A stretch of DNA of 45,115 bases, from assembly GCA_050116155.1 (NCBI GenBank), contig JASFPE010000001.1, forward strand, positions 1-45,115, written 5' to 3'. The position numbers and the translations under genes were made by a program. Positions 15,933 through 39,243 of this stretch are shown here, piece after piece. Every line of letters begins with the position of its first letter. The stretch's first letter is position 1. Source of the stretch: Desulfobacterales bacterium. GTDB taxonomy: Bacteria; Desulfobacterota; Desulfobacteria; Desulfobacterales; JAHEIW01. The notes below the pieces were generated by a model. The model saw only the letters and a program-made list of their open reading frames with translations, made no database searches and was not told where the DNA came from.

Positions 15933-16259
15933 AGTTAAACCTCCCTGTAACCCTAGGTTGCGCAAATTTTATAACTCATTTTGCACCACCTGCCAGTCCT
16001 TGTATACTTTGGCCGGTTTGCAAGTCAGAATATTGCGAGGCCAACAGGCGAAAGGAATGGTTATTTACCACAGGCGGGGCGGGTGGACAAAACGGGCTAA
16101 AACCTATAACGATCTTCTTTTGTTTGTCAATCGAAAATAAAGTTTTGTTAGCAGACCAACATAGGCTGTTGCGGCAATGAGCGCATCGCTCAGTCCATCT
16201 TTTGCTTGACCCGCCAGAGCTATTTCTCTATTAGTTTGCACGAAAGGGGGTATACTTCG

Positions 16260-17450: not shown

Positions 17451-17473
17451 CCCAGGTACTGATCCAGAATATT

Positions 17474-18385
17474 TTAAAGAACCTCCGGAAATCCCGGTGC
17501 CCGCAGTTCTGTGTCGAGGGCGTCTTCCAGAAGCTTGACCACCATGGATGACCAGGCATTTCCGCCGTATTGTGCCCGGGCACGGATAAACACTTGCTCA
17601 ACCAGTCCCCCCAGCTCCAACGGAACATCAAATTCGCGGCCAAGCCGGTTGGCAAGCAACAGGTCTTTGCACGCCAAGTCCATGGTGAAGCCGATATTGT
17701 AGCTGCCGTTTAAAATCACCTGGCTTTCGGTTTCGTGAACGAAACTGTTGCCGGAGCTGGCTTTGATGGCTTCGAACGCTGTGGTCAAGTCGAGACCTCC
17801 TCGTTTGGCCAGCATCAGCGCCTCACCCGCGGCTACCAGATGAATGAACGCCAGCATATTGGTGATGACCTTGATCACCGAAGCACTTCCCAGGGGGCCC
17901 ATATATATGATGGTGCCGCCCATGGCCTGAAAGGCAGGCAAATGTTCATCATAGACGGTCTTATCGCCACCGACCAGAACCGTTATTTCGCCTTCAGCGG
18001 CCTTGTGAACACCGCCGGTTACCGGTGCCTCAAGACAGGCAATTCCGTTGTCCGCGGCAAGGGCAGCCAGGCGTTTCACCTCATTGAGATCATTGGTGCT
18101 CATGTCGATCCAGGTGCCGCCGGCCTTAAGGCCAGCCAGGATACCATTTTCCCCGGTCATGACTTCGGCGACAGCCGCTGGTGAGGGAAGGCAGGTGATG
18201 ACGGTATCTGCTGATTCGGCAGCCTGTTTGGGAGATGAAGCGCAGATCCCACCCGGCTCGATCAGGCCTTCTGCTGCATCGGTGTCGAGATCATGAACGG
18301 CGACCGCAAATCCTGCGCGCAGCAGATTGGTGGCTAGGTGTACACCGAGATTACCGACGCCAATGAATCCGAATCTCTTTTTCAT
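17474..18385 (-). CDS. NAD(P)-dependent oxidoreductase, 3-hydroxyisobutyrate / tartronate-semialdehyde reductase family
   Basis: 303 aa. N-terminal FGFIGVGNLG Rossmann motif, LEAPVTGGVHKAAEG, and the GSASVIKVITN block. Confidence 0.85.
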   Translation of the reverse strand: MKKRFGFIGVGNLGVHLATNLLRAGFAVAVHDLDTDAAEGLIEPGGICASSPKQAAESADTVITCLPSPAAVAEVMTGENGILAGLKAGGTWIDMSTNDLNEVKRLAALAADNGIACLEAPVTGGVHKAAEGEITVLVGGDKTVYDEHLPAFQAMGGTIIYMGPLGSASVIKVITNMLAFIHLVAAGEALMLAKRGGLDLTTAFEAIKASSGNSFVHETESQVILNGSYNIGFTMDLACKDLLLANRLGREFDVPLELGGLVEQVFIRARAQYGGNAWSSMVVKLLEDALDTELRAPGFPEVL

Positions 18386-18491
18386 ACCTTATCCTTTCTA
18401 ATTTGCAGTGTGTTCATATATAATTTTCTGTTACCGCGCCGCTTTCCGTCTGGTTATGAGGCTATAGATTTTTCAAAGTAGACCGCAGCGA

Positions 18492-19679
18492 TCATAAAAC
18501 CGGCCGATCCAGCATCTCGAGATGTAGTTTTTTCCCGGTATAGGGATGCTTGGCGGCCACCTCTTCATCGAGTTCGACGCCCAGCCCGGGGTTTTTCGGC
18601 GGTACAATATATCCTTGTTCCCATTGGATTGGCGCTTTCAGAATCTCGGCGTGGAAACCGTCCCAGGTTTTAATACCTTCCTGTATCAGGAAATTGGGGC
18701 TGCAGGTATCTATTTGAATATTTGCGGCGCCTTCAATCGGTCCACAATACAAATGTGGCGCTATCTGGGCGTAGTGGGCTTCCGCCATGCCGGCAATCTT
18801 TTTGGCTTCAAGTATCCCGCCAACTCTCCCCAGGGCCATCTGCAGTATGGTTGCCGCCTGTTGCTCAAGCAATCTTGCAAACTCATATTTTGTGGTGAGC
18901 CGTTCACCGGTTGCGATGGGGATGCTGGTCGAACAGGCCACCCGGGCCATTTCTTCTACTTTTTCTGGAGGCACCGGTTCCTCAAACCACAATGGATCGA
19001 AGGGTTCCAGGCGCCTGGCTAAGCGAATGGCACTGGAGGTGGTCATCTGACCATGGGTTCCAATAAGTAGATCGCAATTGTCACCGACGGCCTCTCGCAC
19101 CGTTTTGATAAATCTTTCCGCCTGCTCCAACGCTTCCAGAGACAATTGGCGGGGATCAAAGGCGGAATAGGAACCTAACGGGTCAAATTTTACGGCAGTG
19201 AAGCCCTGATTCACATAGTCTGCCGCTCTTTCTGCTGCCAGTTCCGGATCTCTGTACACGTCTGTTTTATCAGTATTTTGTGGATAGATATAAGTGTACG
19301 ACCTGAGTTTTTCATGCACCTGGCCGCCCAGCAATTCATAGATTGGCTTGTGTAGTTCTTTGCCGACAATGTCCCAGCATGCCATTTCAATGCCGCTGAG
19401 TACCCCCATCAGTGACAGGTCCGGGTGTTGGGTGTAGCCGCTGGAATAAATAATTCGCCACAAGCGTTCTATCTTGAAGGGGTCAGCTCCCAAAACACTT
19501 CGTTCACAAACGTCCTCAATCATACGCGCCACAATGTGTGGATGAAACGGCACCGAATAAACCTCTCCGAACCCCGCTACTCCGCCGTCGGTAGTGAGTT
19601 TTAGAAATACCCAGTAAAGTCCGCCGAAATGGGGTGGCGGATTTTCGACCACATAAGTTTGGACATCGGTTATTTTCAT
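18492..19679 (-). CDS. Enolase-superfamily enzyme (mandelate racemase / acid-sugar dehydratase-like)
   Basis: About 395 aa from ATG 19679 (MKITDVQTYVV...). GFGEVY N-terminal capping domain and a barrel with LLIGTHGQ, WFEEP and ATGERL metal-ligand blocks. Confidence 0.8.
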   Translation of the reverse strand: MKITDVQTYVVENPPPHFGGLYWVFLKLTTDGGVAGFGEVYSVPFHPHIVARMIEDVCERSVLGADPFKIERLWRIIYSSGYTQHPDLSLMGVLSGIEMACWDIVGKELHKPIYELLGGQVHEKLRSYTYIYPQNTDKTDVYRDPELAAERAADYVNQGFTAVKFDPLGSYSAFDPRQLSLEALEQAERFIKTVREAVGDNCDLLIGTHGQMTTSSAIRLARRLEPFDPLWFEEPVPPEKVEEMARVACSTSIPIATGERLTTKYEFARLLEQQAATILQMALGRVGGILEAKKIAGMAEAHYAQIAPHLYCGPIEGAANIQIDTCSPNFLIQEGIKTWDGFHAEILKAPIQWEQGYIVPPKNPGLGVELDEEVAAKHPYTGKKLHLEMLDRPVL

Positions 19680-19911
19680 GAGTCGCTGTCCTTTGTTAAA
19701 GGGTGAAGAACGGGTCACAATTACTTTGATTTTTAGTCATTTACATAAGCTTTTGGCAAAGTCAATATGAATGGGATGTTATTAAATTATTTTGATCTGC
19801 CATCTGATTTTTGTATACTAACCTTGACTGCTGAAAAGGCGATATGATATTCAGCTTTTCATGAAGAAATGTGTTAACCCTTAAAAAGTGGGTGCCACAT
19901 GAGATGAATAG

Positions 19912-23468: not shown

Positions 23469-24350
23469 CTATTTGGTGTCATCGAAGATGAATCGCCAGG
23501 CTGTGCCGGAGCTCACGATTCGGCCAACCGAAGGCGTCGGAAAGTGAGAGGGCATTATTAAGGTATTGGTATTTGCATAACGGTCCATAAATTCACGGCG
23601 CGTGAGCTGCGCTTGGTCAGGATTAACACAAAAGCAACTATTCCAGTCGGGTTCTGCGCACTGCAGAGGGTGATGCATGATATCGCCGCTGATAACGGCA
23701 TCAGCATCCTTGGACGAGATATGCAAGCATACATGGCCAGGCGTGTGACCGGGTGTCGGATCGAGCCATATGTTTTTCTCAAAGGCATAGTCTTTCTCGA
23801 TAAAGACGGCTTGACCGGCTGCGATAATCGGCAAAATACTGTCTGTGTAATATGGATCATCGGTGAACGCATCTGTCTGATATTGATGTTGCCAATACTC
23901 CCACTCGTCGCGTACAAACAGGTATTCGGCATTGGGGAAGGTCGATGTCCAGCGACTGCCCGACAGCTTTGTGTTCCAGCCTACATGGTCGACATGCAGA
24001 TGGGTGCATAATACGTAATCCACGTCCGCGGGCTTGATGCCCAATGTTAAAAGGTTTTCCAGATAGAGCCATTTTTTCATGTGGTAGCGGGATTTTTGAG
24101 GACGGTGCTTGTCGTTACCGCTGCAGGTGTCTACCAAAATGGTATGGCGGGGCGTTTGCACGACATAGGTGTTGAAAGCAAGAATCAGCTGTCTGCTTTG
24201 CGGATCGAACAAACCGGGTTCTAGCTCATCACCAAGAGAGTCAATGGCTTTTCTTGTAGACGATGGGAGTAGGAGTTCGGGAGGAAAAAGCGGGCTTTCG
24301 AATTCGACTACACGTTGCACGATGATGTCACCGAAAGTCCATCTAGACAT
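23469..24350 (-). CDS. MBL-fold metallo-hydrolase (lactonase-like)
   Basis: 293 aa. HxHxDH motif as HLHVDHVGW, and a downstream His (TPGHTPGH). Confidence 0.8.
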   Translation of the reverse strand: MSRWTFGDIIVQRVVEFESPLFPPELLLPSSTRKAIDSLGDELEPGLFDPQSRQLILAFNTYVVQTPRHTILVDTCSGNDKHRPQKSRYHMKKWLYLENLLTLGIKPADVDYVLCTHLHVDHVGWNTKLSGSRWTSTFPNAEYLFVRDEWEYWQHQYQTDAFTDDPYYTDSILPIIAAGQAVFIEKDYAFEKNIWLDPTPGHTPGHVCLHISSKDADAVISGDIMHHPLQCAEPDWNSCFCVNPDQAQLTRREFMDRYANTNTLIMPSHFPTPSVGRIVSSGTAWRFIFDDTK

Positions 24351-24512
24351 ATGCGTTTTATTTCCTATTTTTTTTGATCATTATTGCTGAGCGATAGTTT
24401 CTGACCAGAGCGTTTTTCTGCAAGTCTTCGCAAATCCTCTTTTTTAAATGAGAAAAAATAGACACTCTTGCCAGGCAATCCAGTTTGCTTAGTGCCATTG
24501 GAACCGCTCCCT

Positions 24513-24549
24513 AATAAAAAACCCCATTTCGTTTTGCCAGAAATGGGGT
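24513..24549 (-). terminator. Rho-independent terminator downstream of the small zinc-ribbon gene
   Basis: ccccatttc (24522-24530) pairs with gaaatgggg (24540-24548). On the minus strand the hairpin is followed by a T-run (the plus-strand A-run at 24514-24521). Confidence 0.7.
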
Positions 24550-24643
24550 TTTCGATTCATACCATTGCCACCTCTTGGGTGGGACTTGTGTATTTATAGG
24601 TCTACAAAGTTATAATACCACAACGCTCCTTATTTGAAACTTT

Positions 24644-24802
24644 CTATCCCGCTTCCTTGGCTGACAGAAATCGATTTACTTTCGTGCCACACTCCGGGCA
24701 GGTGCCTTTGGCTACCGGCTTTCCCTTTGCCGTTTTTTCTACCGAGCCGTTTGTAATCTTTTGCTTCTTGCGACACTTAACGCAGTAACCTTCAAAGTCC
24801 AT
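24644..24802 (-). CDS. Small zinc-ribbon protein (52 aa), DUF5679-like; absent from the ORF track
   Basis: Hand translation gives MDFEGYCVKCRKKQKITNGSVEKTAKGKPVAKGTCPECGTKVNRFLSAKEAG. Two CxxC pairs, AAGGAGG 7 nt upstream of the ATG, and its own terminator. Confidence 0.7.
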   Translation of the reverse strand: MDFEGYCVKCRKKQKITNGSVEKTAKGKPVAKGTCPECGTKVNRFLSAKEAG

Positions 24803-25202
24803 TACGATACCTCCTTGTGCAAAAGTGTTTGGTTCTAGATCCTGAACAGCGGGTGAACCGTCCGTCTTTTGTTCAGAGAAATGAAGTTTTGACCCATACG
24901 CTGACGACTGAATAATTGCGTATGTTCAATTTTCTTAAGCCTGGATTTTATCATCTCATTTTTTCTCATGTCAACAATATTGCGTTTTTTCCAGTTTTTC
25001 TTTCCTATTGGGCTAACAGAAAATTGGGCTAACAGAAAAACAGACGGGAAGATCCTTGGTGGACTTTGTTGACGAATGTGTCGGGTTATTAACGTATAAC
25101 GATGGTATCTGGCGTAAGGCTGGGTAAATTTTAGAAAAGGAATGCGCCCTATTTTAATGCCACCTAAATGGTGTTGTACTTAATTTTTCTTCTCTTTTTT
25201 GC

Positions 25203-25361
25203 TTATAAAGAAAAAGGGCTGTCCTGTTCGATCTCCTTTGTGATCTTTGAATCATGAGCCTCTGATCGTCGATGGATTTTTTTTAACAGACCGATGACCA
25301 GACCGCATGAAAGAGAGATAAACGTTGCTACCGATAAAACGATTAGCTGTGTTTCTGACAT
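25203..25361 (-). CDS. Possible small single-pass membrane protein (52 aa)
   Basis: Hand translation gives MSETQLIVLSVATFISLSCGLVIGLLKKIHRRSEAHDSKITKEIEQDSPFSL. GAGG lies 7 nt upstream. No family recognised. Confidence 0.3.
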   Translation of the reverse strand: MSETQLIVLSVATFISLSCGLVIGLLKKIHRRSEAHDSKITKEIEQDSPFSL

Positions 25362-25490
25362 TTTCAAACCTCTAAACAAAATATTCGAATCCTCACCGAA
25401 ATATAAACGGTGTATTGTCAGAAGTACTATTTTAGAGCCAGAAGAATTAATAGCCCCATATAAAACATGATTAATATGAGAATGGTAAAT

Positions 25491-25679
25491 TCAGCCATTT
25501 TTGTGTTTATGAATCCTTTTCTTTTCGTTCCCGGATCCGCACAAATCAGAGCAAAACATGTGCCAATAATCTGATAAGGCTAGTTTTATAATAGATATCA
25601 GATAGATGGGGACCAACAAGATCCCTGATATTTCTGTGATAAGTTGCACAAAAAGATAACCGGTAGGAAAAAATTGCAT
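25491..25679 (-). CDS. Possible small membrane protein (62 aa from the internal ATG)
   Basis: Hydrophobic core LFVQLITEISGILLVPIYLISIIKL. The longest-ORF start at 25706 abuts the T-tract of the terminator. No convincing RBS. Confidence 0.2.
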   Translation of the reverse strand: MQFFPTGYLFVQLITEISGILLVPIYLISIIKLALSDYWHMFCSDLCGSGNEKKRIHKHKNG

Positions 25680-25703
25680 ACAACATTGATTGCGCCAGGC
25701 AGG

Positions 25704-25737
25704 CAAAAAAATGGGCGGCCCACGCCTAAGCCGCCCA
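25704..25737 (-). terminator. Rho-independent terminator at the end of the glycyl-radical-enzyme operon
   Basis: gggcggc (25713-25719) pairs with gccgccc (25730-25736). On the minus strand the hairpin is followed by a tttttttg tract. It lies about 170 nt after the stop of 25905..27056. Confidence 0.65.
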
Positions 25738-25904
25738 AGAAAGGAGGTTAATAAAAACGAGTTTCGCTAACAGTACTCGCCCTATTTTTTAGTCTATCAC
25801 AAAAAAGTAAGATTTCAAAATTTTTTTTGCGGATGGGACGCCAAATTTGAATCTTATTTCTAATTTTTTCATCAAAACCCGTCAGCAGTTGTTTTTTTTG
25901 TCCA

Positions 25905-27056
25905 TTAAACGTATGCCGGACCCTCAATGACAGGATGTTTAGCTAAAAAATCCTCATCGACGTCGAGTCCGATACCCGGTTTGTCGATGGGGTGGACGCA
26001 CCCGTTGGCATCGAGGGTATATGGCTGACTGACAAGCTCATCCCGAAACAGGTTGTTTTGCGACACATCCGCCTCGAAGTAACCGCTGTTATCAATTGCC
26101 GCCAGGAAATGAATCGTGGCCGTCATATTCAGCCCGCTGATTGAGGTATGTGGATGGATAGGCAGTTTATGCACCGATGCCATCGCCGCGATACGCAACG
26201 CCTCGGTGGCTCCGCCCGTTTTAGAAAGGTCCGGTTGAAGAATTTGTATGATGCCGTCTTGGATCAGGCTCGAAAATTCAAAGCGGGTGTAACAGTTTTC
26301 CCCGGCTGCCAGTGGCAAATTTCCATAGCTGGCTGCCAGCGCATAGCTTCGGCGGTCATGAGCCGGAAACGGCTCCTCCAGCCAGCCGACACCGTAAGAT
26401 TCAAATCCCGGGATCATTTGCCGGGTATCTTCGACCGTATAACCGGTATTTGCATCCACCAGTATGGTTAAATCATCACCAAATTTTTTGCGAACCGCCG
26501 CCACACGCTCAAGATCACGATCTCTTGAATCACCAACCCGCAGTTTGACGGCCCGATACCCGGCTTCTACCAGTGCGCCAACCTCTTCTACCAGCGAGCC
26601 CGGTTCCTGGTACCCGAGGGAAACACCGCCGGCGTAAGCAGGAATGGGTCGTGATGAACCGCCGAAAAGGCGATACAGCGGCCAGCCGACGGCTTTACCG
26701 CGGATGTCCCACAGGGCCATATCGATTCCACTCATCGCCAATACAGCCGCCGTACCCATACCATGGCTGGCGAGCTGCATCCGGTAAATGCGGTTCCAAA
26801 CGCCAACGACATCAAAAGCATCCAATCCCACCACCAGCTGCCGCAGGGTCGTGTTTACGAGGTGTGCCACGGCGCCGGGACAACGACCGTGATGAGACTC
26901 GCCAAAGCCGATCAGACCATCTTCGGTTAAGACCTTGACGATAACGGCATCCCGTTTGACGGTGCGGCCGATTCCCAACGTCACCGTGGAATCCGGCGCC
27001 AGAGGAAAGGAGCTCGGATAGGCTTTTACATCTTTAATTTGAGCATGTTTTGTCAT
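25905..27056 (-). CDS. Enolase-superfamily enzyme (mandelate racemase/MLE family: racemase, epimerase or dehydratase)
   Basis: 383 aa. GFGESHH capping region. Metal ligands in LVDANTGY, WLEEPF and AAGENC. LQPDLSKTGG and PIHPH blocks. Confidence 0.8.
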   Translation of the reverse strand: MTKHAQIKDVKAYPSSFPLAPDSTVTLGIGRTVKRDAVIVKVLTEDGLIGFGESHHGRCPGAVAHLVNTTLRQLVVGLDAFDVVGVWNRIYRMQLASHGMGTAAVLAMSGIDMALWDIRGKAVGWPLYRLFGGSSRPIPAYAGGVSLGYQEPGSLVEEVGALVEAGYRAVKLRVGDSRDRDLERVAAVRKKFGDDLTILVDANTGYTVEDTRQMIPGFESYGVGWLEEPFPAHDRRSYALAASYGNLPLAAGENCYTRFEFSSLIQDGIIQILQPDLSKTGGATEALRIAAMASVHKLPIHPHTSISGLNMTATIHFLAAIDNSGYFEADVSQNNLFRDELVSQPYTLDANGCVHPIDKPGIGLDVDEDFLAKHPVIEGPAYV

Positions 27057-27117: not shown

Positions 27118-28044
27118 CTAGCTGCCGATTGATACGTTTATGCCCTGTTTTTCAATCATCGCTTTGATGGAATCAATACGCTTATCGCTCGGTGCCCTTC
27201 CTTCAGGAAAGGGATAGGAACGTCCTAACTGTTCACACTTGGATTTTCCCCCTTCGTGATAGGGCAGCAATGAAATCTTTTCGGCGGTAACCGCTTTTGC
27301 CAAATCGATCAATTTGGCCAAGTGCGCATCCGAATCATTAAAACCGGCAATCAGCGGCATACGTAACCAGAGGGGTTTTGTTTTTGATGCATTTGTGATG
27401 TTTTCCAAGATAATTTGATTTTCTACCCCGGTCATTCTTTTGTGTTCACGGGGGTTAAGATGTTTGATGTCACAGAGAATTAAATCAACCGCTGGTAGCA
27501 CTTTTTCCATCGTTTCCCACGGAGCATACCCCGATGTATCCAGAGCCGTATGTATTCCCAGCCGTTTGCTCTCGTCTAGCAGACGGCCGACAAATTCCCA
27601 CTGCGATAAGGCTTCTCCGCCGGAAATAGTCATTCCGCCACCTGAATTCCTGTAAAAGGCCCTGTCTTTGAGGACTTCATCCAGGACTTCATCCAGATTC
27701 ATATATTTTCCGCATACTTTTAAGGAGCTGTAAATACAGGCATCGACACACACAAGACATTGGTTGCATTTGCCCCACTCTATTTTTCGGCCTGCCTCCC
27801 TGGTAAGGGTGATGGCGCCTTGCGGACAGATCTTTTCACATGCCCCGCATCGCCGGCAATGCATGTCGCTGACCATCAAATTGGGGATAAAATCCTGAGA
27901 CTCTGGATTGGAGCACCAATAACAATTCAGCGGGCACCCTTTCATGAAGACGGTGGATCTAATTCCCGGCCCGTCATGTATACTGAAGCGCTGGATATTG
28001 AAAACCAGGCCTTTGCCATCATAATTGCTTTTGGGGAAATTCAT
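27118..28044 (-). CDS. Glycyl-radical enzyme activating enzyme (radical SAM)
   Basis: Radical-SAM CPLNCYWCSNPE (CxxxCxxC) plus two ferredoxin-like clusters (CRRCGACEKICP, CNQCLVCVDAC), typical of non-PFL GRE activases. The start is ATG 28044 or TTG 28056. Confidence 0.9.
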   Translation of the reverse strand: MNFPKSNYDGKGLVFNIQRFSIHDGPGIRSTVFMKGCPLNCYWCSNPESQDFIPNLMVSDMHCRRCGACEKICPQGAITLTREAGRKIEWGKCNQCLVCVDACIYSSLKVCGKYMNLDEVLDEVLKDRAFYRNSGGGMTISGGEALSQWEFVGRLLDESKRLGIHTALDTSGYAPWETMEKVLPAVDLILCDIKHLNPREHKRMTGVENQIILENITNASKTKPLWLRMPLIAGFNDSDAHLAKLIDLAKAVTAEKISLLPYHEGGKSKCEQLGRSYPFPEGRAPSDKRIDSIKAMIEKQGINVSIGS

Positions 28045-28131: not shown

Positions 28132-30528
28132 CTAGGCCAAACTGTGCTCGGTCCTATCGATGATATGATCCTGGAGCCCCTTTGACAGTTCCACAAAATA
28201 GGCGCTATAGCCGGCCACTCTTACAATGAGGTCCTGATACTCATCAGGCCGCTCCCGTGCATCCTCCAGGGTTTGTTTGTCCACCACGTTAAACTGGACA
28301 TGGGGGATCTTCATTTCTCTCCAGGTTTTTAAATAATCAATGAAAACCGGTTTCATTTCCCCTTCGAGGAATTGAGGCATGAATTTCTGATTTAGGAGAT
28401 GGTTATAGGTTTGCAGGGTATCGATTTTGGCGCAGGAGTTGAGAACGGCCGTTGGGCCCTTCTTGTCCATACCCGGCTGGGGTGCCAGCGTGGAATCTGC
28501 AAAGGGCTCGCCATCCAGCCTACCGTCAGGGGTAGCCGGGGTATTTACAGCCAGACCGTAAGTGGCCGATACGGCGCTGCCGTCCCCTCGTTTTGAAAAT
28601 CCAAAGCGATCTTTTACGGTTTCCATGATCGCTTCCGTGCCATGATGCACATCGCGGGCAATCAGGTCTACATAATCATCGTCATTTCCATACTTGGGTG
28701 CGTTCAGACATGCTTGCCGGACATCGTCACGGCCTTCCCAGTTTTTGTCCATAATTTCAATGAGTTGTGGGAGGCTGACGAGCCGGTCTTCAAAGACCAC
28801 TTTCTTTATCGCGGCCAGCGAATCGGCAATATTGGTCGATCCAATCACGATGGTCATATCGTGCACCATGGAGGGGTAAATCCATTGTTTGCATTCCTTG
28901 CCGCGTTCGATGCAACCTTCTACGATGGCGGAATAAAAAGGTCTCGGACAGTATTTGGCATAAAGATCCCTGCAGGTATTCTCCATTTGAGCCATCCTGG
29001 TGGTAAAAAACCGCACCTGTTCCAGATAGGCTTCAAAGACGTCCTCCCATGACCTGAAGCCAGCGGGATCGGCCGTTTTTGCTCCCCACTGTTCCCCGGT
29101 TTTGGGATCCACACCCTGGTGCAGGGCCCACCATAAACATTTTGCTAAAACAAAATAGCCTTCCACCCGACGCGTAATATTTTTACCCGGTATCTCCATG
29201 TAAACGCATCCTGAAACCGCGTATCCGTTGGCATCCTCTTCCGGGACACCCCATTTTTTCAGGAGCGGAATCAGGGCCCCATCATTGAACAACGAGGGGT
29301 ACCCCAGCCCGGTGCGGATGACATCGGTTGCTTTCGATAACAATTCATCGGGTGTGCCGTCATGGACTCTCAAGGCGATACTCGGTTCAATGGTTCGCAT
29401 GGTTCTGGCAGCTTCAAGGGCCAGATAGGTCAGCTCGTTGGTTACATCATTTCCGACATTGTCCGTTCCCCCCAACGTAATTGCCTGTAGTGAAGCCACG
29501 CCACCATAGACCGAAGTGACCAGCGGCGAGTATACCAGTCCCAGTTCGAGAAACTTTGCCCACAGAAGCTGCAGGATTTCAAGGGCCTCATCTTTGGTTA
29601 TGCGGCCGGCTTGCAGATCTTTTTCATAGTAAGGGCCAAACAGATAGTCCAGGCGGATTCCGATTCCCAGGGTTGAATATTCTAGATATCGAACCAGATG
29701 AATGAAATAAAAGAACTGCACGGCTTCTAAAAAAGTCCGCGGGGGATTTGCCGGGACCCACTCGCAACTGTGGGCAACGTCTTCCAGCCTCTTTTTTTTC
29801 TCGGCATCCTTTTCGGCTGCGGCCATCTCCCGTGCCAGGGTCGCATAACGCCCGGCAAAGTTTATCACCGCTTTCAGGACAATGACCACCGAGCGCAGAA
29901 ATTCCTTTTGATCGACATAGTCTGAAGGTATAGTTTGCTCGATTTCTGCCAGTCTATCCTCGGCCATCTTGATTCTTCCGGTGAGCCCACTTTTAAACAA
30001 TTCCTCATAGTCTGGAATGCCCAGTTCCGATAGGTGGGTCCACAGAAATGTGCCCTCATACTTCCAGTATTTGGCAAGATCACCCTCAAATAAATCTTGA
30101 TGCCGATCGCTCATGCACTTGCCTTTCCAGTAGGTACAAAGCTCCTCCAGTTCCTCCCTGCCGTCATCATCCAAAAGGGTTTTACCGGCCTCCGAGTTTA
30201 CCAGTCTTTTTACCGATCTCCAGTTCATATCGATGGGGTGAAAGAGTCCCTCCGGACTGGAGGTCTGATATCCGACAATACGCTCCCAGTCCCTGATGAA
30301 AATACCCATATGGTCAAGGACATGTGCCAGGGCTTTGGCACGGCGTATCACCATCGGCTCTCCGTCCGTTTGCTTAAATGATTCCGTCATCAACCGCGAA
30401 CGCTGGAGATCCAATTTAATTTCGGGTCGAAACAAACCGCGCGTTTTTTCATCTTCCGCGTACCCGCGCTGCACATTACGGACAGCCTTGCTGGCAATAT
30501 TATTTTTGAGCTCTTCCATTATCGGCAT
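28132..30528 (-). CDS. Glycyl radical enzyme (PFL2 / glycerol-dehydratase-like clade), substrate unknown
   Basis: 798 aa with AGGAG 7 nt upstream. C-terminal glycine loop VRVAGYSAYF. A single-Cys loop VSGCVYMEIPGKN rather than the CC pair of pyruvate formate-lyase. Confidence 0.9.
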   Translation of the reverse strand: MPIMEELKNNIASKAVRNVQRGYAEDEKTRGLFRPEIKLDLQRSRLMTESFKQTDGEPMVIRRAKALAHVLDHMGIFIRDWERIVGYQTSSPEGLFHPIDMNWRSVKRLVNSEAGKTLLDDDGREELEELCTYWKGKCMSDRHQDLFEGDLAKYWKYEGTFLWTHLSELGIPDYEELFKSGLTGRIKMAEDRLAEIEQTIPSDYVDQKEFLRSVVIVLKAVINFAGRYATLAREMAAAEKDAEKKKRLEDVAHSCEWVPANPPRTFLEAVQFFYFIHLVRYLEYSTLGIGIRLDYLFGPYYEKDLQAGRITKDEALEILQLLWAKFLELGLVYSPLVTSVYGGVASLQAITLGGTDNVGNDVTNELTYLALEAARTMRTIEPSIALRVHDGTPDELLSKATDVIRTGLGYPSLFNDGALIPLLKKWGVPEEDANGYAVSGCVYMEIPGKNITRRVEGYFVLAKCLWWALHQGVDPKTGEQWGAKTADPAGFRSWEDVFEAYLEQVRFFTTRMAQMENTCRDLYAKYCPRPFYSAIVEGCIERGKECKQWIYPSMVHDMTIVIGSTNIADSLAAIKKVVFEDRLVSLPQLIEIMDKNWEGRDDVRQACLNAPKYGNDDDYVDLIARDVHHGTEAIMETVKDRFGFSKRGDGSAVSATYGLAVNTPATPDGRLDGEPFADSTLAPQPGMDKKGPTAVLNSCAKIDTLQTYNHLLNQKFMPQFLEGEMKPVFIDYLKTWREMKIPHVQFNVVDKQTLEDARERPDEYQDLIVRVAGYSAYFVELSKGLQDHIIDRTEHSLA

Positions 30529-30590: not shown

Positions 30591-31550
30591 TCAGGGATCC
30601 TCAATCAGCATGTCTCTCGTAAGCTTTGAGGGATCTTCGGCACCGATCAAGCTCATGATGCGTTTCATTTCTGCTGTGATTTCGGTGATGAGATGGTGGA
30701 TGCCATCCCGGCCTTCGGCGGCAAGGCCGTAAAGGATCGGGCGGCCCAGACCGACCAGCGACGCTCCAAAAGCCAGTCCCTTGAGAACATCGCTGCCGCG
30801 TCGGAATCCACCGTCCACAATCAGGACGGTCTTTCCTCCGACAGCTTCCGTAATTTCGTCCATCACCTGCAGCGCATGGGGCAGATAATCCAGGGTGTGA
30901 GCGCCGTGGTTGGAAACAACCATGCCGTCGGCACCGGCTTCGGCGCATTTTTCTGCATCCCGGCCGCTCAAAATCCCCTTGCAGATCAACGGACAGGAGA
31001 CTTTTTTGCGGATGTCTTTGAGTTCTTGAAGTGAAAGCGGTCTGCAGTCGGTGGCCACCTGCTTGTCGTGGATTTTGGTTCCTTGTCCGGCGTCCGTTTC
31101 TATTCCGACCCAGGTGACACCGGCTTTCTGGATGTCTTCCAGGTCCCGGAACATCTTGTCTCGATCATTAAAAGGTTTGGCATTGGCGACTATCGGAACA
31201 CCGGTAGCAGCCAGCTCCTTTAAATTCTGTGGGATGGGGGTGCCCGTCCACATAAGGCTGCCGGCATCTTTAAGGGCCTGGGCCACATCCATCATGCCGT
31301 TATCGGTTATGGCCGGAATCGGCATGGTCATGGCGGACATAATCACCGGGGTTGCCAGCTCAACATCGAGGATTCTGCAACTGGTTTTGGGCGCCACGCC
31401 GTCGATATAATGGGGTCGAAATGTATACCGATCGAGGATGCGGCGGTCATGTTCTAAAATAAATCCGGTTTCAACCGCTTCCAGCACCCGTCCATACTCT
31501 TTTTCCGCGAGGATCTTTTTACCCTTCTGATATATATCCGTAAGCCCCAT
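30591..31550 (-). CDS. FMN-dependent alpha-hydroxy-acid dehydrogenase/oxidase family protein (atypical)
   Basis: TIM-barrel blocks ICKGIL, VVSNHGAHTLD and VDGGFRRGSDVLKGLAFGASLVGLGRP. I prefer ATG 31550 (GGAG 9 nt upstream) over ATG 31559, which abuts the RBS. Confidence 0.7.
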   Translation of the reverse strand: MGLTDIYQKGKKILAEKEYGRVLEAVETGFILEHDRRILDRYTFRPHYIDGVAPKTSCRILDVELATPVIMSAMTMPIPAITDNGMMDVAQALKDAGSLMWTGTPIPQNLKELAATGVPIVANAKPFNDRDKMFRDLEDIQKAGVTWVGIETDAGQGTKIHDKQVATDCRPLSLQELKDIRKKVSCPLICKGILSGRDAEKCAEAGADGMVVSNHGAHTLDYLPHALQVMDEITEAVGGKTVLIVDGGFRRGSDVLKGLAFGASLVGLGRPILYGLAAEGRDGIHHLITEITAEMKRIMSLIGAEDPSKLTRDMLIEDP

Positions 31551-31719
31551 AAGATTCATCTCCTTTCATTAAAACGGGGTCACGACTGCCCGTTCGTTTA
31601 CTGTATCTATACTTTGAATGATAAAGATTTGCAACCGTACTGGCTCTGAACCAAATATCGGGGCCGATAAACGTTAAATCTTTTTGAAGGTGTTATGGTT
31701 TTTTTCAGGTGGAGAATGA

Positions 31720-35881: not shown

Positions 35882-36628
35882 TCAATGCCTTTGATATCCC
35901 AAAGAGGCCCAGATATGATCTCTTAGGTTAACTTTGTAGCCCGAGTTTCCTTCTTGTTTGGGTACTTTGGCGGTGAACTTAATCGCGCCGACGGGACAGA
36001 CTTCTACGCAAGCCTGTTTGCCCTGGGGGCCTCCTCCTGTGGGATCCCAGTGATAAGGTGCATTGGCGCAAAGTTCACATTTTTTGGCTTTCATATCACC
36101 ACCGTATTTTTCGTCCGGGACCATAAACGATCTGCTGGGGGTATAAGGACATTCTTCGACACAGGCACCGCAACCGATACATTTCTCGACGTCCACCACT
36201 CTTCTGACGCTGCCGAAGCGCGCATCCACCGTCAGGGCCTCTTCCGGGCAGGCGGCCACACAGGCCGGATCGACGCACTGACGGCACTGCTCGATGGTCA
36301 GGTCATGTGGCCATTTGTCAAATGAGTTTTGAATGACCTGTATTCTGGACAGGGAAAGGTTCTCAACCCCTTCATTGACAAGAGAGCAGGCCAGCATACA
36401 GGAAACGCATCCCTGGCATTTTTTAACATCAACCAGCAGATAACCGCCGGAAACAGGGATACCAGACCGGCCGTCGGCCAATTTTACGATCTTGGGCAGG
36501 GCCTCTTTGACACCGGCATAGCCGCCCGCGCTTACGCCGATGGCAACGGTTCCAGCAATTCTCAAAAAATATCGGCGGCTTATGTTCGTATCTTTTCTAG
36601 TTATCTTGGTATCATTATTCTTATCCAT
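35882..36628 (-). CDS. Tat-signal 4x[4Fe-4S] ferredoxin-type subunit (YdhX/NrfC/DmsB-like)
   Basis: 248 aa. Twin-arginine motif SRRYFLRIAG. Cys clusters CQGCVSCMLAC, CRQCVDPACVAACP, CIGCGACVEECP and CELC...CVEVCP. Confidence 0.88.
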   Translation of the reverse strand: MDKNNDTKITRKDTNISRRYFLRIAGTVAIGVSAGGYAGVKEALPKIVKLADGRSGIPVSGGYLLVDVKKCQGCVSCMLACSLVNEGVENLSLSRIQVIQNSFDKWPHDLTIEQCRQCVDPACVAACPEEALTVDARFGSVRRVVDVEKCIGCGACVEECPYTPSRSFMVPDEKYGGDMKAKKCELCANAPYHWDPTGGGPQGKQACVEVCPVGAIKFTAKVPKQEGNSGYKVNLRDHIWASLGYQRH

Positions 36629-36664
36629 AAGGTTTTACCTTCCCTATCCGTCAAGTGGTTTTGT

Positions 36665-36856
36665 AAATTCCAAATTTCAAATCACAAATTCCAATGATCT
36701 AAATTCAAAATTCCAAACATGAATGACGAAATTTGGAATCATGTCTGGTGGTGCTTAAACATATCATAGGCATGTTTGGGTCATTGAATATTGTAAATTT
36801 AGATTTATTTGTAATTTGGTGCTTGTAATTTGGGGTTTTTGAAGCTCATAAAACCC
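36665..36856. repeat. AATTCCAAAT-type nested palindromic element between the AOR and Fe-S subunit genes
   Basis: Left arm aaattccaaatttcaaatcacaaattccaa...aaattcaaaattccaaacatg. Right arm catgtttggg...tttgtaatttggtgcttgtaatttgg. The ccaaacatg/catgtttgg pair is perfect. A terminal hairpin is gggtttt...aaaaccc. Confidence 0.75.
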
Positions 36857-36897
36857 AAATTTCACATTTACCGACCAAGCGTCTGTAACAGTATGAA

Positions 36898-38991
36898 TTA
36901 TCCCTTCCCCAATTTACCGTTTTGTGCGAGTTCAGTGGCAACATAGCCCAGGCCCAGGGACTTCAGGGTGCCGGCGGTCGGATAACCGGTGTTGATCTCC
37001 CATCCCTGCAAGGCGTAAAAACTGCTTTTGAATTCTTCGAATTTGTCTTTATCAAAATGGCGGCCCAGGGTTTTTACAAAGTCCCACTTTCCGTTTTCCA
37101 GACCGGGCATGTACTCGGGCTGTCCGAAGGGTGAAAAGCTATTCTGGGAATAAAAATAGTCGGCGAAATGAACCATATTCCGATGTCTTCCCTGAAGTGT
37201 CCAGATGGCGTGATCCAGATTCCATATTTTTTTCCCCAGCTCAATGCCGTCCAGGAAGGTAAAATTCTTGCCTGTGACGGCATTGAGGAATTTGGGTTCC
37301 GCTGTACCGGTTGATCCGATTTTCGCGGGGTTGTAAAGATTCAAAAAATCCGGCCAGCGCCAGTCACAGAACTGGACGGATTGTTTCCAGAACCGTGAAT
37401 AATATCGGTGCCAGGTGACCAGTTTGGCGATGTGCTCGGAGTACATATTTTCGGTGCTGAAATCCAGCATGCGCATGTCTCCTTGAAACGGCACCATTTT
37501 ATCGGTGTAGATTTTGACCATCTCCTCGGCGGATGCATACATCGGCACACCCCACTGTTTGGCAGCGGTGGGATGACTTCGTAATTGGTCGAAACCGTGT
37601 TCATTAATGTCCCGGTCACCAAAGACGGTGCCATAAGCCCAGTCCAGCTGTGAGCGTGCTTCCTTATGTCTCGGCAGACCCCAGATCGGAAACATCAGCC
37701 GGCCGGTCTTTAAGTCCCCGTGAACGCCGTCCAGTCGGTTCCACTTTTTCGCCGCCCGCACAAAGCCCTCGGCCAGATCCTCTCCAAACTGATGTTTATT
37801 GCCTCGGCCATCATTTCGATAGGCGATCATCTTGACCAGTTGCTCGGCAAAGGCCAGCTTGCCGTAATTCTTAAAATCCAGGGGGCAATCGATCTCTTTG
37901 CCCGGACCCAGGATACCGGCGTCGTTAAGGTCTTTAAGGTAAAGCTCTCCCCAGAACATCTCTGCAGCGTTCAATCCGTATCTGTTGAGCAGATCACAGG
38001 CCTGACGCTGAACATCCAGTGTATTTGCATAAACATAAAACAGGGTCGTAAAACAGGTGGCCTCATTGCCGAACCCGTCTTCATATCTGCCCCGGCAGCC
38101 GGAATGGCAGCCGACGCATGCCTGGGGTCTTTTGCCTACACTGGGCTTTCCCTTTGGATACAAAGTACCCGGTATAGGAGCGCTTTGAAAATCAACGGAC
38201 ATATATTTCCATTTCAAATTATCCAGGTTAAACCCGTAATTTTTCTGTTGCCACAAGCGAGCTTGCATGAGGGCTTTGGGATTATTGACCCGGATGCTGC
38301 CGGTGCCGATGACGCTGATGGCTTTCAGTCCTTTTGCACCCCATATGGCACCAAAGCCGCCCTGGCCGGCACCGTTGCTGGCGTCGTGGATCAGGCAGGC
38401 CATTCGGCTTAAATTTTCTCCGGCCGGGCCGATGGCAAGCACCGCCGGTCGCTGGGTGGTTTGACCGTCGTCTTTGCCATTCGGCATAATCCAGTCACCA
38501 TAAATTTGCTTTCCGGCGACATACTCGAAGATTTTTTGCTGGCATTCCCAGGCGTCAGTTCCCCACAATGACAACTCGCTGCATTTGCGGATGTTGACCG
38601 TGTCGTTTCTGATATCGAGCCAGACGTGATCGTCTGCCCGACCCTCGATGACGATGCCGTCCCAACCGGCATACTTCAGCATGGCCGAAAATCGTCCGCC
38701 AAAATTACTGCGGGTAAACCACCCAATGGGAAGTGATTGTACACCGATGGCCTGCACCTCTGTTCTTGCGGCACCGGCCGGGGCCAGGGTGCCGCAAAGA
38801 GGCGAGGTCATTAAGGTGACGATATTGGCCGGATCAAAACCGTCAATGGTTTTGTCTTTGACCAGGTCAAAGAAAATTGCCGACCCCATGCCATGGCCGC
38901 CAATCCATTGTTCGTATCTGGCTGTGGGTATGGTCGATATTTTTCTATTGGTCAGATTCACTTTTAATATTTTACCCGCAGAACCGTTCAT
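36898..38991 (-). CDS. Aldehyde:ferredoxin oxidoreductase (AOR) family W/Mo-pterin enzyme, long YdhV-like form
   Basis: About 697 aa from ATG 38991 (AGGA about 8 nt upstream). AOR N-terminus GKILKVNLTNRKIS...WIGGHGMG, AGQGGFGAIWGAKGLKAI, and cluster motif CVGCHSGC (CxxCxxxC). Confidence 0.85.
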   Translation of the reverse strand: MNGSAGKILKVNLTNRKISTIPTARYEQWIGGHGMGSAIFFDLVKDKTIDGFDPANIVTLMTSPLCGTLAPAGAARTEVQAIGVQSLPIGWFTRSNFGGRFSAMLKYAGWDGIVIEGRADDHVWLDIRNDTVNIRKCSELSLWGTDAWECQQKIFEYVAGKQIYGDWIMPNGKDDGQTTQRPAVLAIGPAGENLSRMACLIHDASNGAGQGGFGAIWGAKGLKAISVIGTGSIRVNNPKALMQARLWQQKNYGFNLDNLKWKYMSVDFQSAPIPGTLYPKGKPSVGKRPQACVGCHSGCRGRYEDGFGNEATCFTTLFYVYANTLDVQRQACDLLNRYGLNAAEMFWGELYLKDLNDAGILGPGKEIDCPLDFKNYGKLAFAEQLVKMIAYRNDGRGNKHQFGEDLAEGFVRAAKKWNRLDGVHGDLKTGRLMFPIWGLPRHKEARSQLDWAYGTVFGDRDINEHGFDQLRSHPTAAKQWGVPMYASAEEMVKIYTDKMVPFQGDMRMLDFSTENMYSEHIAKLVTWHRYYSRFWKQSVQFCDWRWPDFLNLYNPAKIGSTGTAEPKFLNAVTGKNFTFLDGIELGKKIWNLDHAIWTLQGRHRNMVHFADYFYSQNSFSPFGQPEYMPGLENGKWDFVKTLGRHFDKDKFEEFKSSFYALQGWEINTGYPTAGTLKSLGLGYVATELAQNGKLGKG

Positions 38992-39243
38992 GACGTTTCC
39001 TTTTTTTGACGCACGCATTGTTTCGTTTGCAATAAAAAGTCTTATAAGTGTCAGCAATCGAAATCAGCTTGAGAAAGCTCACGGGGAAAATAGAAGTGGC
39101 GCCCCCGGAATAGATGCCGTTATGTTAGCGGAAAAGGTGTTTATGGTCAAGAGTGCTTACCACGCCTTTCTTTGCTTGACATATCGTTGGTTTTCCCATT
39201 TAAGTTGTGTCCTGTTTTGTGATGATGGAGGATTATCCTGTCA

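What the first reader, a model, noticed from the sequence alone, without database searches (positions are those of the whole stretch)
28132..30528. Glycyl radical enzyme with Tyr in place of the Cys-loop general-base Glu
Seen in sequence:
- The glycine loop VRVAGYSAYF and a single-Cys loop place this 798-aa protein in the glycerol-dehydratase / choline-lyase-like (PFL2) part of the family, not with pyruvate formate-lyase, which has a CC pair.
- The Cys loop reads GYAVSGCVYMEIPGKN.

Established knowledge: in the characterised 1,2-eliminases and dehydratases of this clade (CutC, glycerol and propanediol dehydratases, HypD, IslA) the loop is G-C-V-E, and the Glu two residues after the thiyl Cys is the catalytic base. 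4-hydroxyphenylacetate decarboxylase also has Cys-x-Glu.

Here that position is Tyr, and a Glu appears only at Cys+4.

Inference: the enzyme probably does not use the standard Glu-assisted elimination mechanism. It may act on a new substrate class or carry out different chemistry.
Basis: partly seen in the sequence, partly recalled or inferred. Interest (0 to 1): 0.75.

Follow-up and report, generated by a model that had tools for sequence, protein, structure and literature searches.

The report
Glycyl radical enzyme family with Cys-loop tyrosine
This gene encodes an intact oxygen-sensitive radical enzyme from a widespread, highly conserved family whose reaction is unknown, in which the catalytic glutamate used by the known dehydratases and lyases is always a tyrosine, so it is a good target for enzyme discovery.

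Summary
The gene lies on the minus strand (28132..30528, 798 aa). It encodes a complete glycyl radical enzyme (GRE) with Gly loop VRVAGYSAYF and Cys loop GYAVSGCVYMEIPGKN.

- **Tyr at the Glu position:** alignments place Tyr443 at the Glu of the CXE motif (GDH E435, YbiW E443, IslA E470).
- **Conservation:** Tyr is invariant in all 120 listed homologues (72-93% identity) and in 39 non-redundant genomic loci. These come from Desulfobacterota, Bacillota, Chloroflexota and two Asgard MAGs. The Glu at Cys+4 varies (E/C/D), so it is not a substitute base.
- **Position in sequence space:** the family collapses to one 50%-identity cluster. It passes no curated subfamily model. No paper in the searched library mentions the loop.
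- **Not unique:** the nearest sister clusters checked carry W, S, T, G, Q, R or I at Cys+2, and characterised PhdB has Gln there.
- **Gene context:** the activase is the constant partner. Recurrent partners are an XRE regulator plus a short-chain-type acyl-CoA dehydrogenase (8-9 loci) and an acyl-CoA ligase (7 loci). In this window the partners are an FMN α-hydroxy-acid dehydrogenase and an enolase-superfamily enzyme.

Best reading: a non-eliminase GRE acting on a carboxylic acid. The exact reaction is unknown. It is a new variant of a known kind, of moderate interest.

The parts
28132..30528 (-). Glycyl radical enzyme catalytic subunit, 798 aa, of the G-C-V-Y family.
   Evidence: ORF and translation. 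Pfam PF02901 and PF01228. AlphaFold2 model has pLDDT 91.8 and TM 0.88-0.93 to all PFL2-type GRE structures.
29179..29226 (-). Cys loop GYAVSGCVYMEIPGKN. Catalytic Cys441 is at 29206-29208. Tyr443 at 29200-29202 replaces the CXE glutamate.
   Evidence: Coordinates checked. Alignment to GDH, CutC, YbiW and IslA. Invariant in the family.
28195..28224 (-). Glycine loop VRVAGYSAYF with radical-bearing Gly773.
   Evidence: Gly773 aligns with GDH G763. PF01228 match.
27118..28044 (-). GRE-activating radical SAM enzyme, 87 nt downstream of the GRE.
   Evidence: TIGR02494 at 348 bits, above its cut-off. CPLNCYWC motif and two ferredoxin-like Cys clusters. An activase is adjacent in 27 of 39 family loci.
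30591..31559 (-). FMN-dependent alpha-hydroxy-acid dehydrogenase/oxidase-like protein, 322 aa, 62 nt upstream of the GRE. Probably the first gene of the operon in this genome only.
   Evidence: PF01070 at 224 bits. Best solved relatives are lactate, glycolate and mandelate oxidoreductases. It is below every NCBIfam cut-off. It is not found next to the GRE in other loci.
25905..27056 (-). Enolase-superfamily (MR/MLE) enzyme, 383 aa, 61 nt downstream of the activase. Probably the last gene of the operon.
   Evidence: PF13378 and PF02746. An 88%-identical orthologue lies about 1.8 kb upstream of the GRE, across a divergent TetR gene, in the closest relative L003. It is absent from other family loci.
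25712..25737 (-). Terminator-like hairpin (11 pairs, 7 G-C, followed by a T run), about 170 nt after the MR/MLE stop. Likely end of the four-gene transcription unit.
   Evidence: This is a consensus scan only. Terminator-like sites in the region were not more frequent than in shuffled sequence.

Best explanation
**What it is.** An intact two-gene GRE plus activase module. It belongs to a distinct, tightly conserved and functionally uncharacterised GRE family defined by the Cys loop G-C-V-Y-[MIL]-x-[ILV]-P-G-K-N.

**Shown**
- All radical machinery is present: Gly773, Cys441 and a cognate radical SAM activase.
- The CXE glutamate is an invariant Tyr.
- By alignment, the polar diol- and amine-binding residues of the eliminases are replaced by apolar or small residues.
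- Arg453, Arg454 and Tyr458 on strand beta-6 are invariant. Arg454 and Tyr458 fall at Cys+13 and Cys+17. CutC Thr502 is Cys+13 from Cys489 and was a mutagenesis target (T502A entries). That Thr502 and Tyr506 line the CutC pocket rests on my own knowledge.

**Inferred**
- The enzyme does not carry out Glu-assisted 1,2-elimination.
- In CXE enzymes the Glu carboxylate fills the backbone-amide hole of the Cys loop. In benzylsuccinate and methylalkylsuccinate synthases the same hole binds a substrate carboxylate.
- With Tyr in place of Glu, that hole is probably free to bind a carboxylate of the substrate, helped by Arg454 and perhaps the Tyr443 hydroxyl, in an otherwise apolar pocket.
- The acid that results is passed to CoA activation and to a short-chain-type acyl-CoA dehydrogenase.

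**Favoured specific chemistry (weakly).** A subunit-free C-C bond-forming hydroalkylation of an unsaturated acid, like the X-succinate synthases. The exact substrate is unknown.
For: **Radical machinery.**

**Tyr at the Glu position and its invariance.**

**Not any known subfamily.**
- All NCBIfam equivalogs are far below cut-off, and even TIGR01774 is missed (588 bits against 678).
- The family is one 50%-identity cluster, at 60% identity. The next cluster is at 43%.

**Pocket.**
- GDH H164, H281, S282, Y339, D447 and Y640 align with L169, L287, G288, L347, V455 and S651.
- R453, R454 and Y458 are invariant; Y443 and R454 are also family-specific.

**Oxyanion-hole argument.** The IAD preprint and the MASS structure paper.

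**Precedent.** PhdB Gln484 shows that a non-Glu Cys loop goes with different chemistry.

**Carboxylic-acid and CoA context.**
- XRE plus acyl-CoA dehydrogenase directly upstream in 8-9 loci across Syntrophales, Peptococcaceae, Desulfovirgula and Desulfomonilaceae. An AMP-dependent acyl-CoA ligase is adjacent in 7 loci.
- The dehydrogenase is closest to short-chain acyl-CoA dehydrogenases.
- In the window the co-oriented neighbours are an alpha-hydroxy-acid flavoenzyme and an enolase-superfamily enzyme, both of which act on carboxylic acids.

**Sister clades (42-48% identity) in X-succinate-pathway-like clusters.**
- Two family-III CoA-transferases, two ACADs, an SDR and a thiolase in L047.
- Carboxyltransferases in L046.
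- A methylmalonyl-CoA-mutase-like gene in L051.
- A TodX/FadL transporter in L054.

**Paralogue expansion.** Four tandem family paralogues with one activase and a CoA ligase in a Chloroflexia MAG. My reading that this is typical of substrate-diversified catabolic GREs is not from a tool result.
Against: - No substrate is identified.
- About half of the family loci have unrelated neighbours, so context is thin.
- The dehydrogenase and ligase associations are absent from the window itself.
- No BSS/MASS-type small subunit is conserved near the gene.
- The fumarate-binding Arg of BSS and MASS is at Cys+15. Here that position is a variable residue, and the Arg pair is at +12/+13.
- BssA and MasD are no closer in sequence or fold than the eliminases.
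- The alignment register is ambiguous at two pocket positions. phmmer puts invariant Glu168 on GDH His164 and invariant Asp649 on IslA Arg678 / GDH Tyr640. MAFFT puts Leu169 and Ser651 there. The pocket may therefore contain acid/base residues.
- The 151-170 segment is the least confident part of the model.
- Model coordinates could not be inspected.
Confidence: 0.5

Rival explanations
1. It is still a 1,2-eliminase or dehydratase. The general base has moved from Cys+2 to another residue (Glu168 or Asp649, or Tyr443 acting as tyrosinate). The product would be an aldehyde or ketone that is then oxidised to an acyl-CoA.
For: - The best sequence matches among solved structures are CutC, glycerol dehydratase and IseG.
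- Invariant, family-specific Glu168 and Asp649 fall on GDH His164 and on IslA Arg678 / GDH Tyr640 in the phmmer register.
- One family context (L004 and L023) has an aldehyde dehydrogenase and an MFS transporter directly after the GRE.
- An aldehyde:ferredoxin oxidoreductase lies 6 kb away in the window.
Against: - According to the 2026 review, all the characterised eliminases and isomerases it covers keep CXE.
- E to Q changes abolish activity in CutC and HypD.
- Under the MAFFT register the polar pocket of the dehydratases is lost.
- There are no microcompartment genes, and an aldehyde dehydrogenase is present in only one of the roughly 25 informative contexts.
- All eliminase equivalog models are missed by a wide margin.
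Confidence: 0.2
2. It is a radical decarboxylase of an aryl- or alkyl-carboxylic acid, working like phenylacetate decarboxylase PhdB. PhdB also lacks the Cys-loop Glu and uses a Tyr and a hydrophobic pocket.
For: - PhdB has Gln at Cys+2, an essential Tyr and an apolar pocket.
- The family has an apolar pocket by alignment and an invariant Arg that could hold a carboxylate next to the thiyl radical.
- In the window, the racemase-like and alpha-hydroxy-acid dehydrogenase-like neighbours could feed a 2-oxo acid or an arylacetate-type branch.
- Like IAD and AAD, it needs no small subunit.
Against: - A hydrocarbon product gives no role to the recurrent acyl-CoA ligase and acyl-CoA dehydrogenase neighbours.
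- HPAD and IAD models score far below cut-off.
- AAD is among the weakest structural matches.
- PhdB's essential residues (Trp at Cys+13, Gln at Cys+2) are not matched: the family has Arg at Cys+13 and Tyr at Cys+2.
Confidence: 0.12
3. It is a 2-oxo-acid formate-lyase-like enzyme. It would make a short acyl-CoA that the neighbouring acyl-CoA dehydrogenase then uses. In this genome the oxo acid would be supplied by the FMN dehydrogenase and the MR/MLE racemase.
For: - The window operon combines two enzymes that can produce 2-oxo acids with the GRE.
- A short-chain-type ACAD is adjacent in other genomes.
- Automatic annotations call the protein formate C-acetyltransferase.
Against: - The loop has a single Cys. 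The review states that only PFL and TdcE have the essential Cys-Cys pair.
- The TIGR01255 score is 90 against a cut-off of 994.
- PFL is the most distant solved relative (78 bits).
- An acyl-CoA ligase neighbour would be redundant.
Confidence: 0.05

Closest known systems
B12-independent glycerol dehydratase, choline TMA-lyase CutC and isethionate sulfite-lyases (GRE 1,2-eliminases)
   Same: - Same fold (TM 0.88-0.92).
- Best sequence scores among solved structures (444-471 bits, about 31-33% identity).
- Single catalytic Cys and the same Gly loop type.
- Activase with two auxiliary ferredoxin-like clusters.
- No small subunit.
   Different: - The CXE glutamate is Tyr.
- GDH His164, His281, Ser282, Asp447 and Tyr640 are not conserved.
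- No equivalog model is passed.
- No microcompartment or aldehyde-handling genes in the window.
X-succinate synthases (benzylsuccinate synthase BssA/TutD, methylalkylsuccinate synthase MasD)
   Same: - No Glu-dependent chemistry is described for them.
- A substrate carboxylate binds the Cys-loop amide hole and an Arg on strand beta-6.
- Their downstream pathway uses CoA activation and an acyl-CoA dehydrogenase.
- Highest query-normalised TM-score of all hits (0.93 for 4pkf).
- Sister clades of the family sit in bbs/ass-like clusters.
   Different: - No beta, gamma or delta subunits.
- The Arg is at Cys+12/+13, not Cys+15.
- Sequence similarity (350-405 bits) is no higher than to the eliminases.
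- The family is 72-93% identical across phyla. To my knowledge the X-succinate synthases, which are diversified by substrate, are less uniform; this was not measured here.
Phenylacetate decarboxylase PhdB
   Same: A characterised GRE whose Cys-loop position Cys+2 is not Glu (Gln484). It has a hydrophobic pocket, an essential Tyr elsewhere in the site and no small subunit.
   Different: - Residue identities differ: Gln versus Tyr at Cys+2, and Trp versus Arg at Cys+13.
- PhdB's gene context and ecology differ.
Archaeoglobus fulgidus PFL2/PflD (2f3o), and the Asgard 'Ass/Bss' candidates
   Same: - An uncharacterised single-Cys PFL2-type GRE whose function is debated.
- Second-best solved match to the N-terminal half (199 bits).
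- Asgard PFL2-like GREs have been called alkyl- or benzylsuccinate synthases on 29-33% identity. The present family occurs in two Promethearchaeota MAGs.
   Different: - Only about 31% identity.
- The 2f3o Cys loop was not read here.
- No experimental function is available to transfer.

Membership tests
Glycyl radical enzyme superfamily (PFL-like) | PFL-like barrel plus C-terminal glycyl radical domain with an RVxG[YFW] motif. | tested here: met
   PF02901 at 551 bits and PF01228 at 96 bits. VRVAGYSAYF, with Gly773 aligned to GDH G763. Model TM of 0.88 or more to GRE structures.
Glycyl radical enzyme superfamily (PFL-like) | Catalytic Cys on the Cys loop, and a cognate radical SAM activase. 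| tested here: met
   Cys441 aligns with GDH C433, YbiW C441 and IslA C468. The activase is adjacent and scores above the TIGR02494 cut-off.
GRE 1,2-eliminases and GRE isomerases | CXE motif: a Glu two residues after the catalytic Cys that hydrogen-bonds and deprotonates the substrate hydroxyl. | tested here: not met
   Tyr443 occupies the position and is invariant in the family. The definition of the motif comes from the review and the IAD preprint.
GRE 1,2-eliminases and GRE isomerases | Score above a curated subfamily model (CutC, HypD, HpsG/HpfG, or the general TIGR01774 PFL2-3 model). | tested here: not met
   Scores against cut-offs: 446/1050, 476/1100, 554/1000 and 588/678 bits.
GRE 1,2-eliminases and GRE isomerases | Polar substrate-binding residues equivalent to GDH H164, S282 and D447, or CutC D216 and T502. 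| tested here: inconclusive
   MAFFT gives L169, G288, V455 and R454. phmmer shifts the register so that Glu168 and Asp649 could occupy pocket positions. Model coordinates could not be inspected.
Pyruvate / 2-oxobutyrate formate-lyases | Adjacent Cys-Cys pair on the Cys loop. | tested here: not met
   The loop is S-G-C-V-Y. TIGR01255 scores 90 bits against a cut-off of 994. The CC requirement is stated.
X-succinate synthases (hydroalkylases) | Small accessory subunits (beta and gamma, and delta in MASS) encoded beside the catalytic subunit. | tested here: not met
   No conserved small ORF lies within 1.5 kb in 39 loci. The intergenic gaps in the window are 62 and 87 nt.
X-succinate synthases (hydroalkylases) | Fumarate-binding Arg on strand beta-6 at Cys+15 (BSS R508, MASS R492). 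| tested here: inconclusive
   Position Cys+15 is Glu456 and varies in the family. The invariant Arg453/Arg454 are at +12/+13 on the same predicted strand. No BssA or MasD sequence was available for direct alignment.
X-succinate synthases (hydroalkylases) | Adduct-processing genes nearby (CoA transferase or ligase, acyl-CoA dehydrogenase, mutase or carboxyltransferase). | tested here: inconclusive
   An ACAD is present in 8-9 family loci and a CoA ligase in 7, but none is in the window. Full bbs/ass-like sets occur only in sister clades.
GRE arylacetate decarboxylases (HPAD, IAD, PAD, AAD) | Match to the HPAD or IAD equivalog models. These have CXE (HPAD, IAD) or C-x-Q (PAD). | tested here: not met
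   Scores against cut-offs: 311/1150 and 411/1100 bits.
Aminoacyl radical enzymes (AAREs) | The radical-bearing Gly is replaced by Ala, Ser or Thr. | tested here: not met
   Gly773 is present and invariant. The class is defined.

The most novel reading that the evidence does not exclude
The G-C-V-Y family catalyses a GRE reaction type not yet described. One example would be a stand-alone, subunit-free hydroalkylation or another C-C bond-forming or bond-breaking step on a short carboxylic acid, in which the Cys-loop Tyr takes part in catalysis (hydrogen bonding or proton-coupled radical control). The reaction would be a widespread, horizontally shared trait of syntrophs, sulfate reducers, Chloroflexota and Asgard archaea.
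Probability: 0.35. Interest if true: 0.8.

Novelty: new variant of a known kind. Interest (0 to 1): 0.55.

Why it matters
GREs carry out chemically difficult anaerobic reactions, and only a few dozen have known functions. The 2026 review stresses that whole clades remain unassigned.

This family has several features that make it a well-defined target for functional discovery:
- It is unusually conserved (72-93% identity across phyla).
- It is frequent in metagenomes of sediments, digesters and the subsurface.
- It is routinely mislabelled "formate C-acetyltransferase".
- It has a changed catalytic motif.

If it proves to be a subunit-free C-C bond-forming enzyme, it would also be attractive for biocatalysis, because the known hydroalkylases are hard to activate and need accessory subunits.

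Tried and rejected
- **Literature.** A full-text search for 'GCVY' with 'glycyl radical' found nothing. The 2026 review, the MASS, BSS, IAD and PhdB papers, and the limonene and Hermodarchaeota papers do not describe the family. The limonenylsuccinate synthase is 61% identical to BssA, so it is unrelated to this family.
- **Fold comparison.** The AlphaFold2 model is confident, but Foldseek gives TM 0.88-0.93 to every PFL2-type GRE, so it does not discriminate. Model coordinates cannot be read, so the pocket could not be inspected.
- **Cys+4 Glu as an alternative base.** Rejected, because the position is E, C or D.
- **Accessory subunits.** None is conserved. The recurrent small ORFs are out-of-frame artefacts inside the activase or ACAD genes.
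- **Plasmid collection.** Searched for an annotated BssA to align. None was found, only GDH, CutC, YbiW and PflB, which were used instead.
- **Contigs of the sister representatives P0122 and P0124.** Too short to be useful.
- **Rfam scan of the window.** No RNA family found.
- **Link to the MttB/MtmB/corrinoid cluster.** I considered an N-methyl-hydroxyproline-type pathway. The cluster is about 12 kb away with unrelated genes in between, and those GREs keep CXE. I did not adopt this.
- **PDB alignment print-outs.** They show only match and posterior lines, not the target residues. Residue equivalences from them rest on coordinates and were re-checked with real sequences.
Full report
**1. Observation**

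The ORF at 28132..30528 is real but lies on the minus strand. It encodes 798 aa with a PFL-like barrel (PF02901, 551 bits) and a glycyl radical domain (PF01228, 96 bits). The Cys loop GYAVSGCVYMEIPGKN is residues 435-450 (window 29179..29226). The Gly loop VRVAGYSAYF is residues 769-778 (28195..28224).

The window is the whole 45,115-bp contig of a Desulfobacterales MAG. The protein is deposited as MGD8519516.1, "pyruvate formate lyase family protein".

phmmer alignments to solved GREs are ungapped through the loop. By coordinates they put Cys441/Tyr443 on GDH C433/E435 and IslA C468/E470. Those print-outs do not show target residues. I therefore fetched real sequences of C. butyricum glycerol dehydratase, Klebsiella CutC and E. 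coli YbiW and aligned them. Tyr443 stands opposite Glu435, the CutC Glu and Glu443, and the numbering matches the literature.

**2. Is it more than a one-off?**

- All 120 listed homologues (72-93% identity) keep G-C-V-Y.
- So do 39 non-redundant loci drawn from species-representative genomes and from the metagenome and assembly contigs that encode listed homologues.
- Cys+4 is E, C or D. When it is Cys, residue 547 is always Arg (30 of 30), so it is not a conserved base.
- In a search of 1.84 billion 50%-identity representatives, the whole family is one cluster (P0121, 60% identity, 1093 bits). The next hit drops to 43% identity and 717 bits.
- The family occurs in Desulfobacterales, Syntrophales including Smithella, Desulfomonilaceae, Peptococcaceae, Syntrophomonadaceae, Desulfovirgula, Chloroflexia and two Promethearchaeota MAGs. 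This breadth at such high identity implies horizontal transfer and strong constraint.
- Two MAGs carry two family copies each on separate contigs.

**3. How unusual is a non-Glu loop?**

The 2026 review states that all the characterised C-O, C-N and C-S eliminases and the isomerases it covers keep CXE. HPAD and IAD also have it.

PhdB, however, has an essential Cys-loop Gln484 next to Cys482, and its authors read that as a different mechanism.

Among the 150 nearest representatives, most have no Glu at Cys+2. The closest sisters for which a loop could be read carry W, S, T, G, Q, R or I (and alignment A2). Two of them, P0122 and P0140, are as far from every solved GRE as the query is.

The query therefore belongs to a large uncharted non-CXE radiation. 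The Tyr is diagnostic for this family but is not a unique departure.

**4. Classification tests**

- No NCBIfam equivalog is passed, and the general TIGR01774 model is missed as well.
- The best solved relatives are CutC, GDH and IseG at 444-471 bits. MasD scores 405, BssA 350 and PFL 78.
- The AlphaFold2 model is confident (pLDDT 91.8) but equidistant from all PFL2-type structures (TM 0.88-0.93, with BSS highest at 0.93).

**5. Active site by alignment**

Under MAFFT, the polar substrate-binding residues of GDH are replaced as follows:

| GDH residue | Window residue |
|---|---|
| H164 | L169 |
| H281 | L287 |
| S282 | G288 |
| Y339 | L347 |
| D447 | V455 |
| Y640 | S651 |

R453, R454 and Y458 are invariant in the family, and Y443 and R454 are also family-specific. 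Other family-specific changes include W466-W467, which replace a widely conserved E-L. Arg454 and Tyr458 are at Cys+13 and Cys+17. CutC Thr502 is Cys+13 from Cys489 and was mutated in the T502A entries; that Thr502 and Tyr506 line the CutC pocket rests on my own knowledge.

One caveat applies. phmmer uses another register, which puts invariant Glu168 on GDH His164 and Asp649 on IslA Arg678. The 151-170 segment is also the least confident part of the model. Coordinates could not be inspected, so this remains open.

**6. Gene context**

In the window, four co-oriented genes are separated by 62, 87 and 61 nt, and a strong terminator-like hairpin follows them. In order they are:
- an FMN alpha-hydroxy-acid dehydrogenase-like gene,
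- the GRE,
- the activase,
- an MR/MLE enolase-superfamily gene.

The MR/MLE gene has an 88%-identical orthologue near the GRE in the closest relative. Neither it nor the flavoenzyme recurs elsewhere.

Across 39 loci the counts are as follows:
- an activase in 27 loci, directly downstream in 24;
- an XRE regulator plus an acyl-CoA dehydrogenase directly upstream in 8-9 loci, from several orders and two phyla;
- an AMP-dependent acyl-CoA ligase adjacent in 7 loci.

The dehydrogenase is closest to short-chain acyl-CoA dehydrogenases. The remaining contexts are unrelated housekeeping genes. No small accessory subunit is conserved. One Chloroflexia MAG has four tandem paralogues with a single activase and a CoA ligase.

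Sister clades at 42-48% identity lie in clusters that resemble X-succinate pathways:
- two family-III CoA-transferases, two ACADs, an SDR and a thiolase;
- carboxyltransferases;
- a methylmalonyl-CoA-mutase-like gene;
- a TodX/FadL transporter.

**7. Mechanism**

*Shown.* The Gly773 / Cys441 / activase machinery is complete, and the CXE base is absent.

*Inferred.* In CXE enzymes the Glu carboxylate is held by the backbone amides of the Cys loop. In BSS and MASS the same amide hole holds a fumarate carboxylate, with an Arg on strand beta-6 holding the other. With Tyr in place of Glu, the hole is probably available for a substrate carboxylate. Arg454, and possibly the Tyr443 hydroxyl, would complete the site in an otherwise apolar pocket.

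All recurrent partners act on carboxylic acids or their CoA esters: the CoA ligase, the ACAD, the alpha-hydroxy-acid flavoenzyme and the enolase-superfamily enzyme.

I therefore favour a non-eliminase GRE acting on a carboxylic acid (confidence about 0.5). Within that, a subunit-free hydroalkylation-type C-C bond formation is the leading but weak specific guess.

Rivals:
- an eliminase with a relocated base (0.2);
- a PhdB-like decarboxylase (0.12);
- a single-Cys oxo-acid lyase (0.05).

**8. Verdict**

The implied singularity is overstated. This is a new variant of a known kind: a well-delimited, abundant and mis-annotated GRE family with an altered catalytic motif and a testable biochemical hypothesis. 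Interest is moderate (0.55).

Noticed in passing
window 11917..15965 (minus strand): A cluster of an MttB-superfamily methyltransferase (509 aa), an MtmB-family protein read as one uninterrupted 460-aa ORF, and a B12-binding corrinoid protein. The MtmB-family ORF has no in-frame stop, whereas methanogen MtmB carries pyrrolysine. An amino-acid ABC transporter lies next to the cluster. Together this suggests methylated-amine or betaine demethylation in this Desulfobacterales MAG.
   Followed up: partly
window 24350..25905: About 1.5 kb with no ORF of 80 aa or more, between the MR/MLE gene and a metallo-beta-lactamase-fold lactonase-like gene. It contains a 52-aa ORF with two CxxC pairs (24644..24802, minus strand), the strong terminator-like hairpin at 25737..25712, and an 11/12 promoter-like site at 24974..24945. 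Rfam found nothing.
   Followed up: partly
window 16206..19718: A second enolase-superfamily (MR/MLE) paralogue (18492..19718, 408 aa) sits beside a 3-hydroxyisobutyrate-dehydrogenase-like gene and an iron alcohol dehydrogenase.
   Followed up: no
window 35882..39057 (minus strand): A tungsten-type aldehyde:ferredoxin oxidoreductase (719 aa) with a poly-ferredoxin lies 6 kb from the GRE. It could matter if the GRE product were an aldehyde.
   Followed up: no
GRE residues 445 and 547 (window 29194..29196 and 28888..28890), across homologues P0001-P0121: Covariation between two positions. Cys+4 = Cys always goes with Arg at residue 547 (30 of 30). Cys+4 = Glu or Asp goes mostly with Cys, Ser or Ala at 547. 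This defines two subclades, and two MAGs carry two family copies each on separate contigs. It may reflect a contact or different substrates, but shared ancestry is not controlled for.
   Followed up: partly
L001 12546..12992, and the equivalent genes in L025 and L027: In the Cys+4 = Cys subclade, a conserved 146-150-aa Cys/His-containing protein with no Pfam or NCBIfam match lies directly after the GRE. A ferredoxin-like protein recurs nearby: it is also adjacent in L001 and occurs in three other family loci. It could be a subclade-specific accessory protein.
   Followed up: partly
L043 4054..14852 (Chloroflexia MAG): Four tandem G-C-V-Y paralogues (805-832 aa) share one activase and are followed by an acyl-CoA ligase.
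   Followed up: partly
L032 and L037 (Promethearchaeota MAG contigs): Family members at 67-68% identity, each with an adjacent activase, lie on contigs binned as Asgard archaea. Binning error was not excluded. Asgard PFL2-like GREs have been called Ass/Bss in a preprint on 29-33% identity.
   Followed up: partly
L047 954..14439; L046 6546..9804; L051 4773..11511; L054 15760..16965: Sister GRE clades (38-48% identity, with other residues at Cys+2) sit in clusters that resemble benzyl- or alkylsuccinate pathways. L047 has two CoA-transferase III genes, two ACADs, an OYE reductase, an SDR and a thiolase. L046 has carboxyltransferases. L051 has two GREs followed by a methylmalonyl-CoA-mutase-like gene. 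L054 has a TodX/FadL transporter.
   Followed up: partly
GRE residues 466-467 (window 29128..29133): The family has invariant Trp-Trp (KCLWWAL). At the same positions 60 and 51 of 68 other GRE representatives have Glu and Leu (KCLELAL). The role of this change is unknown.
   Followed up: no
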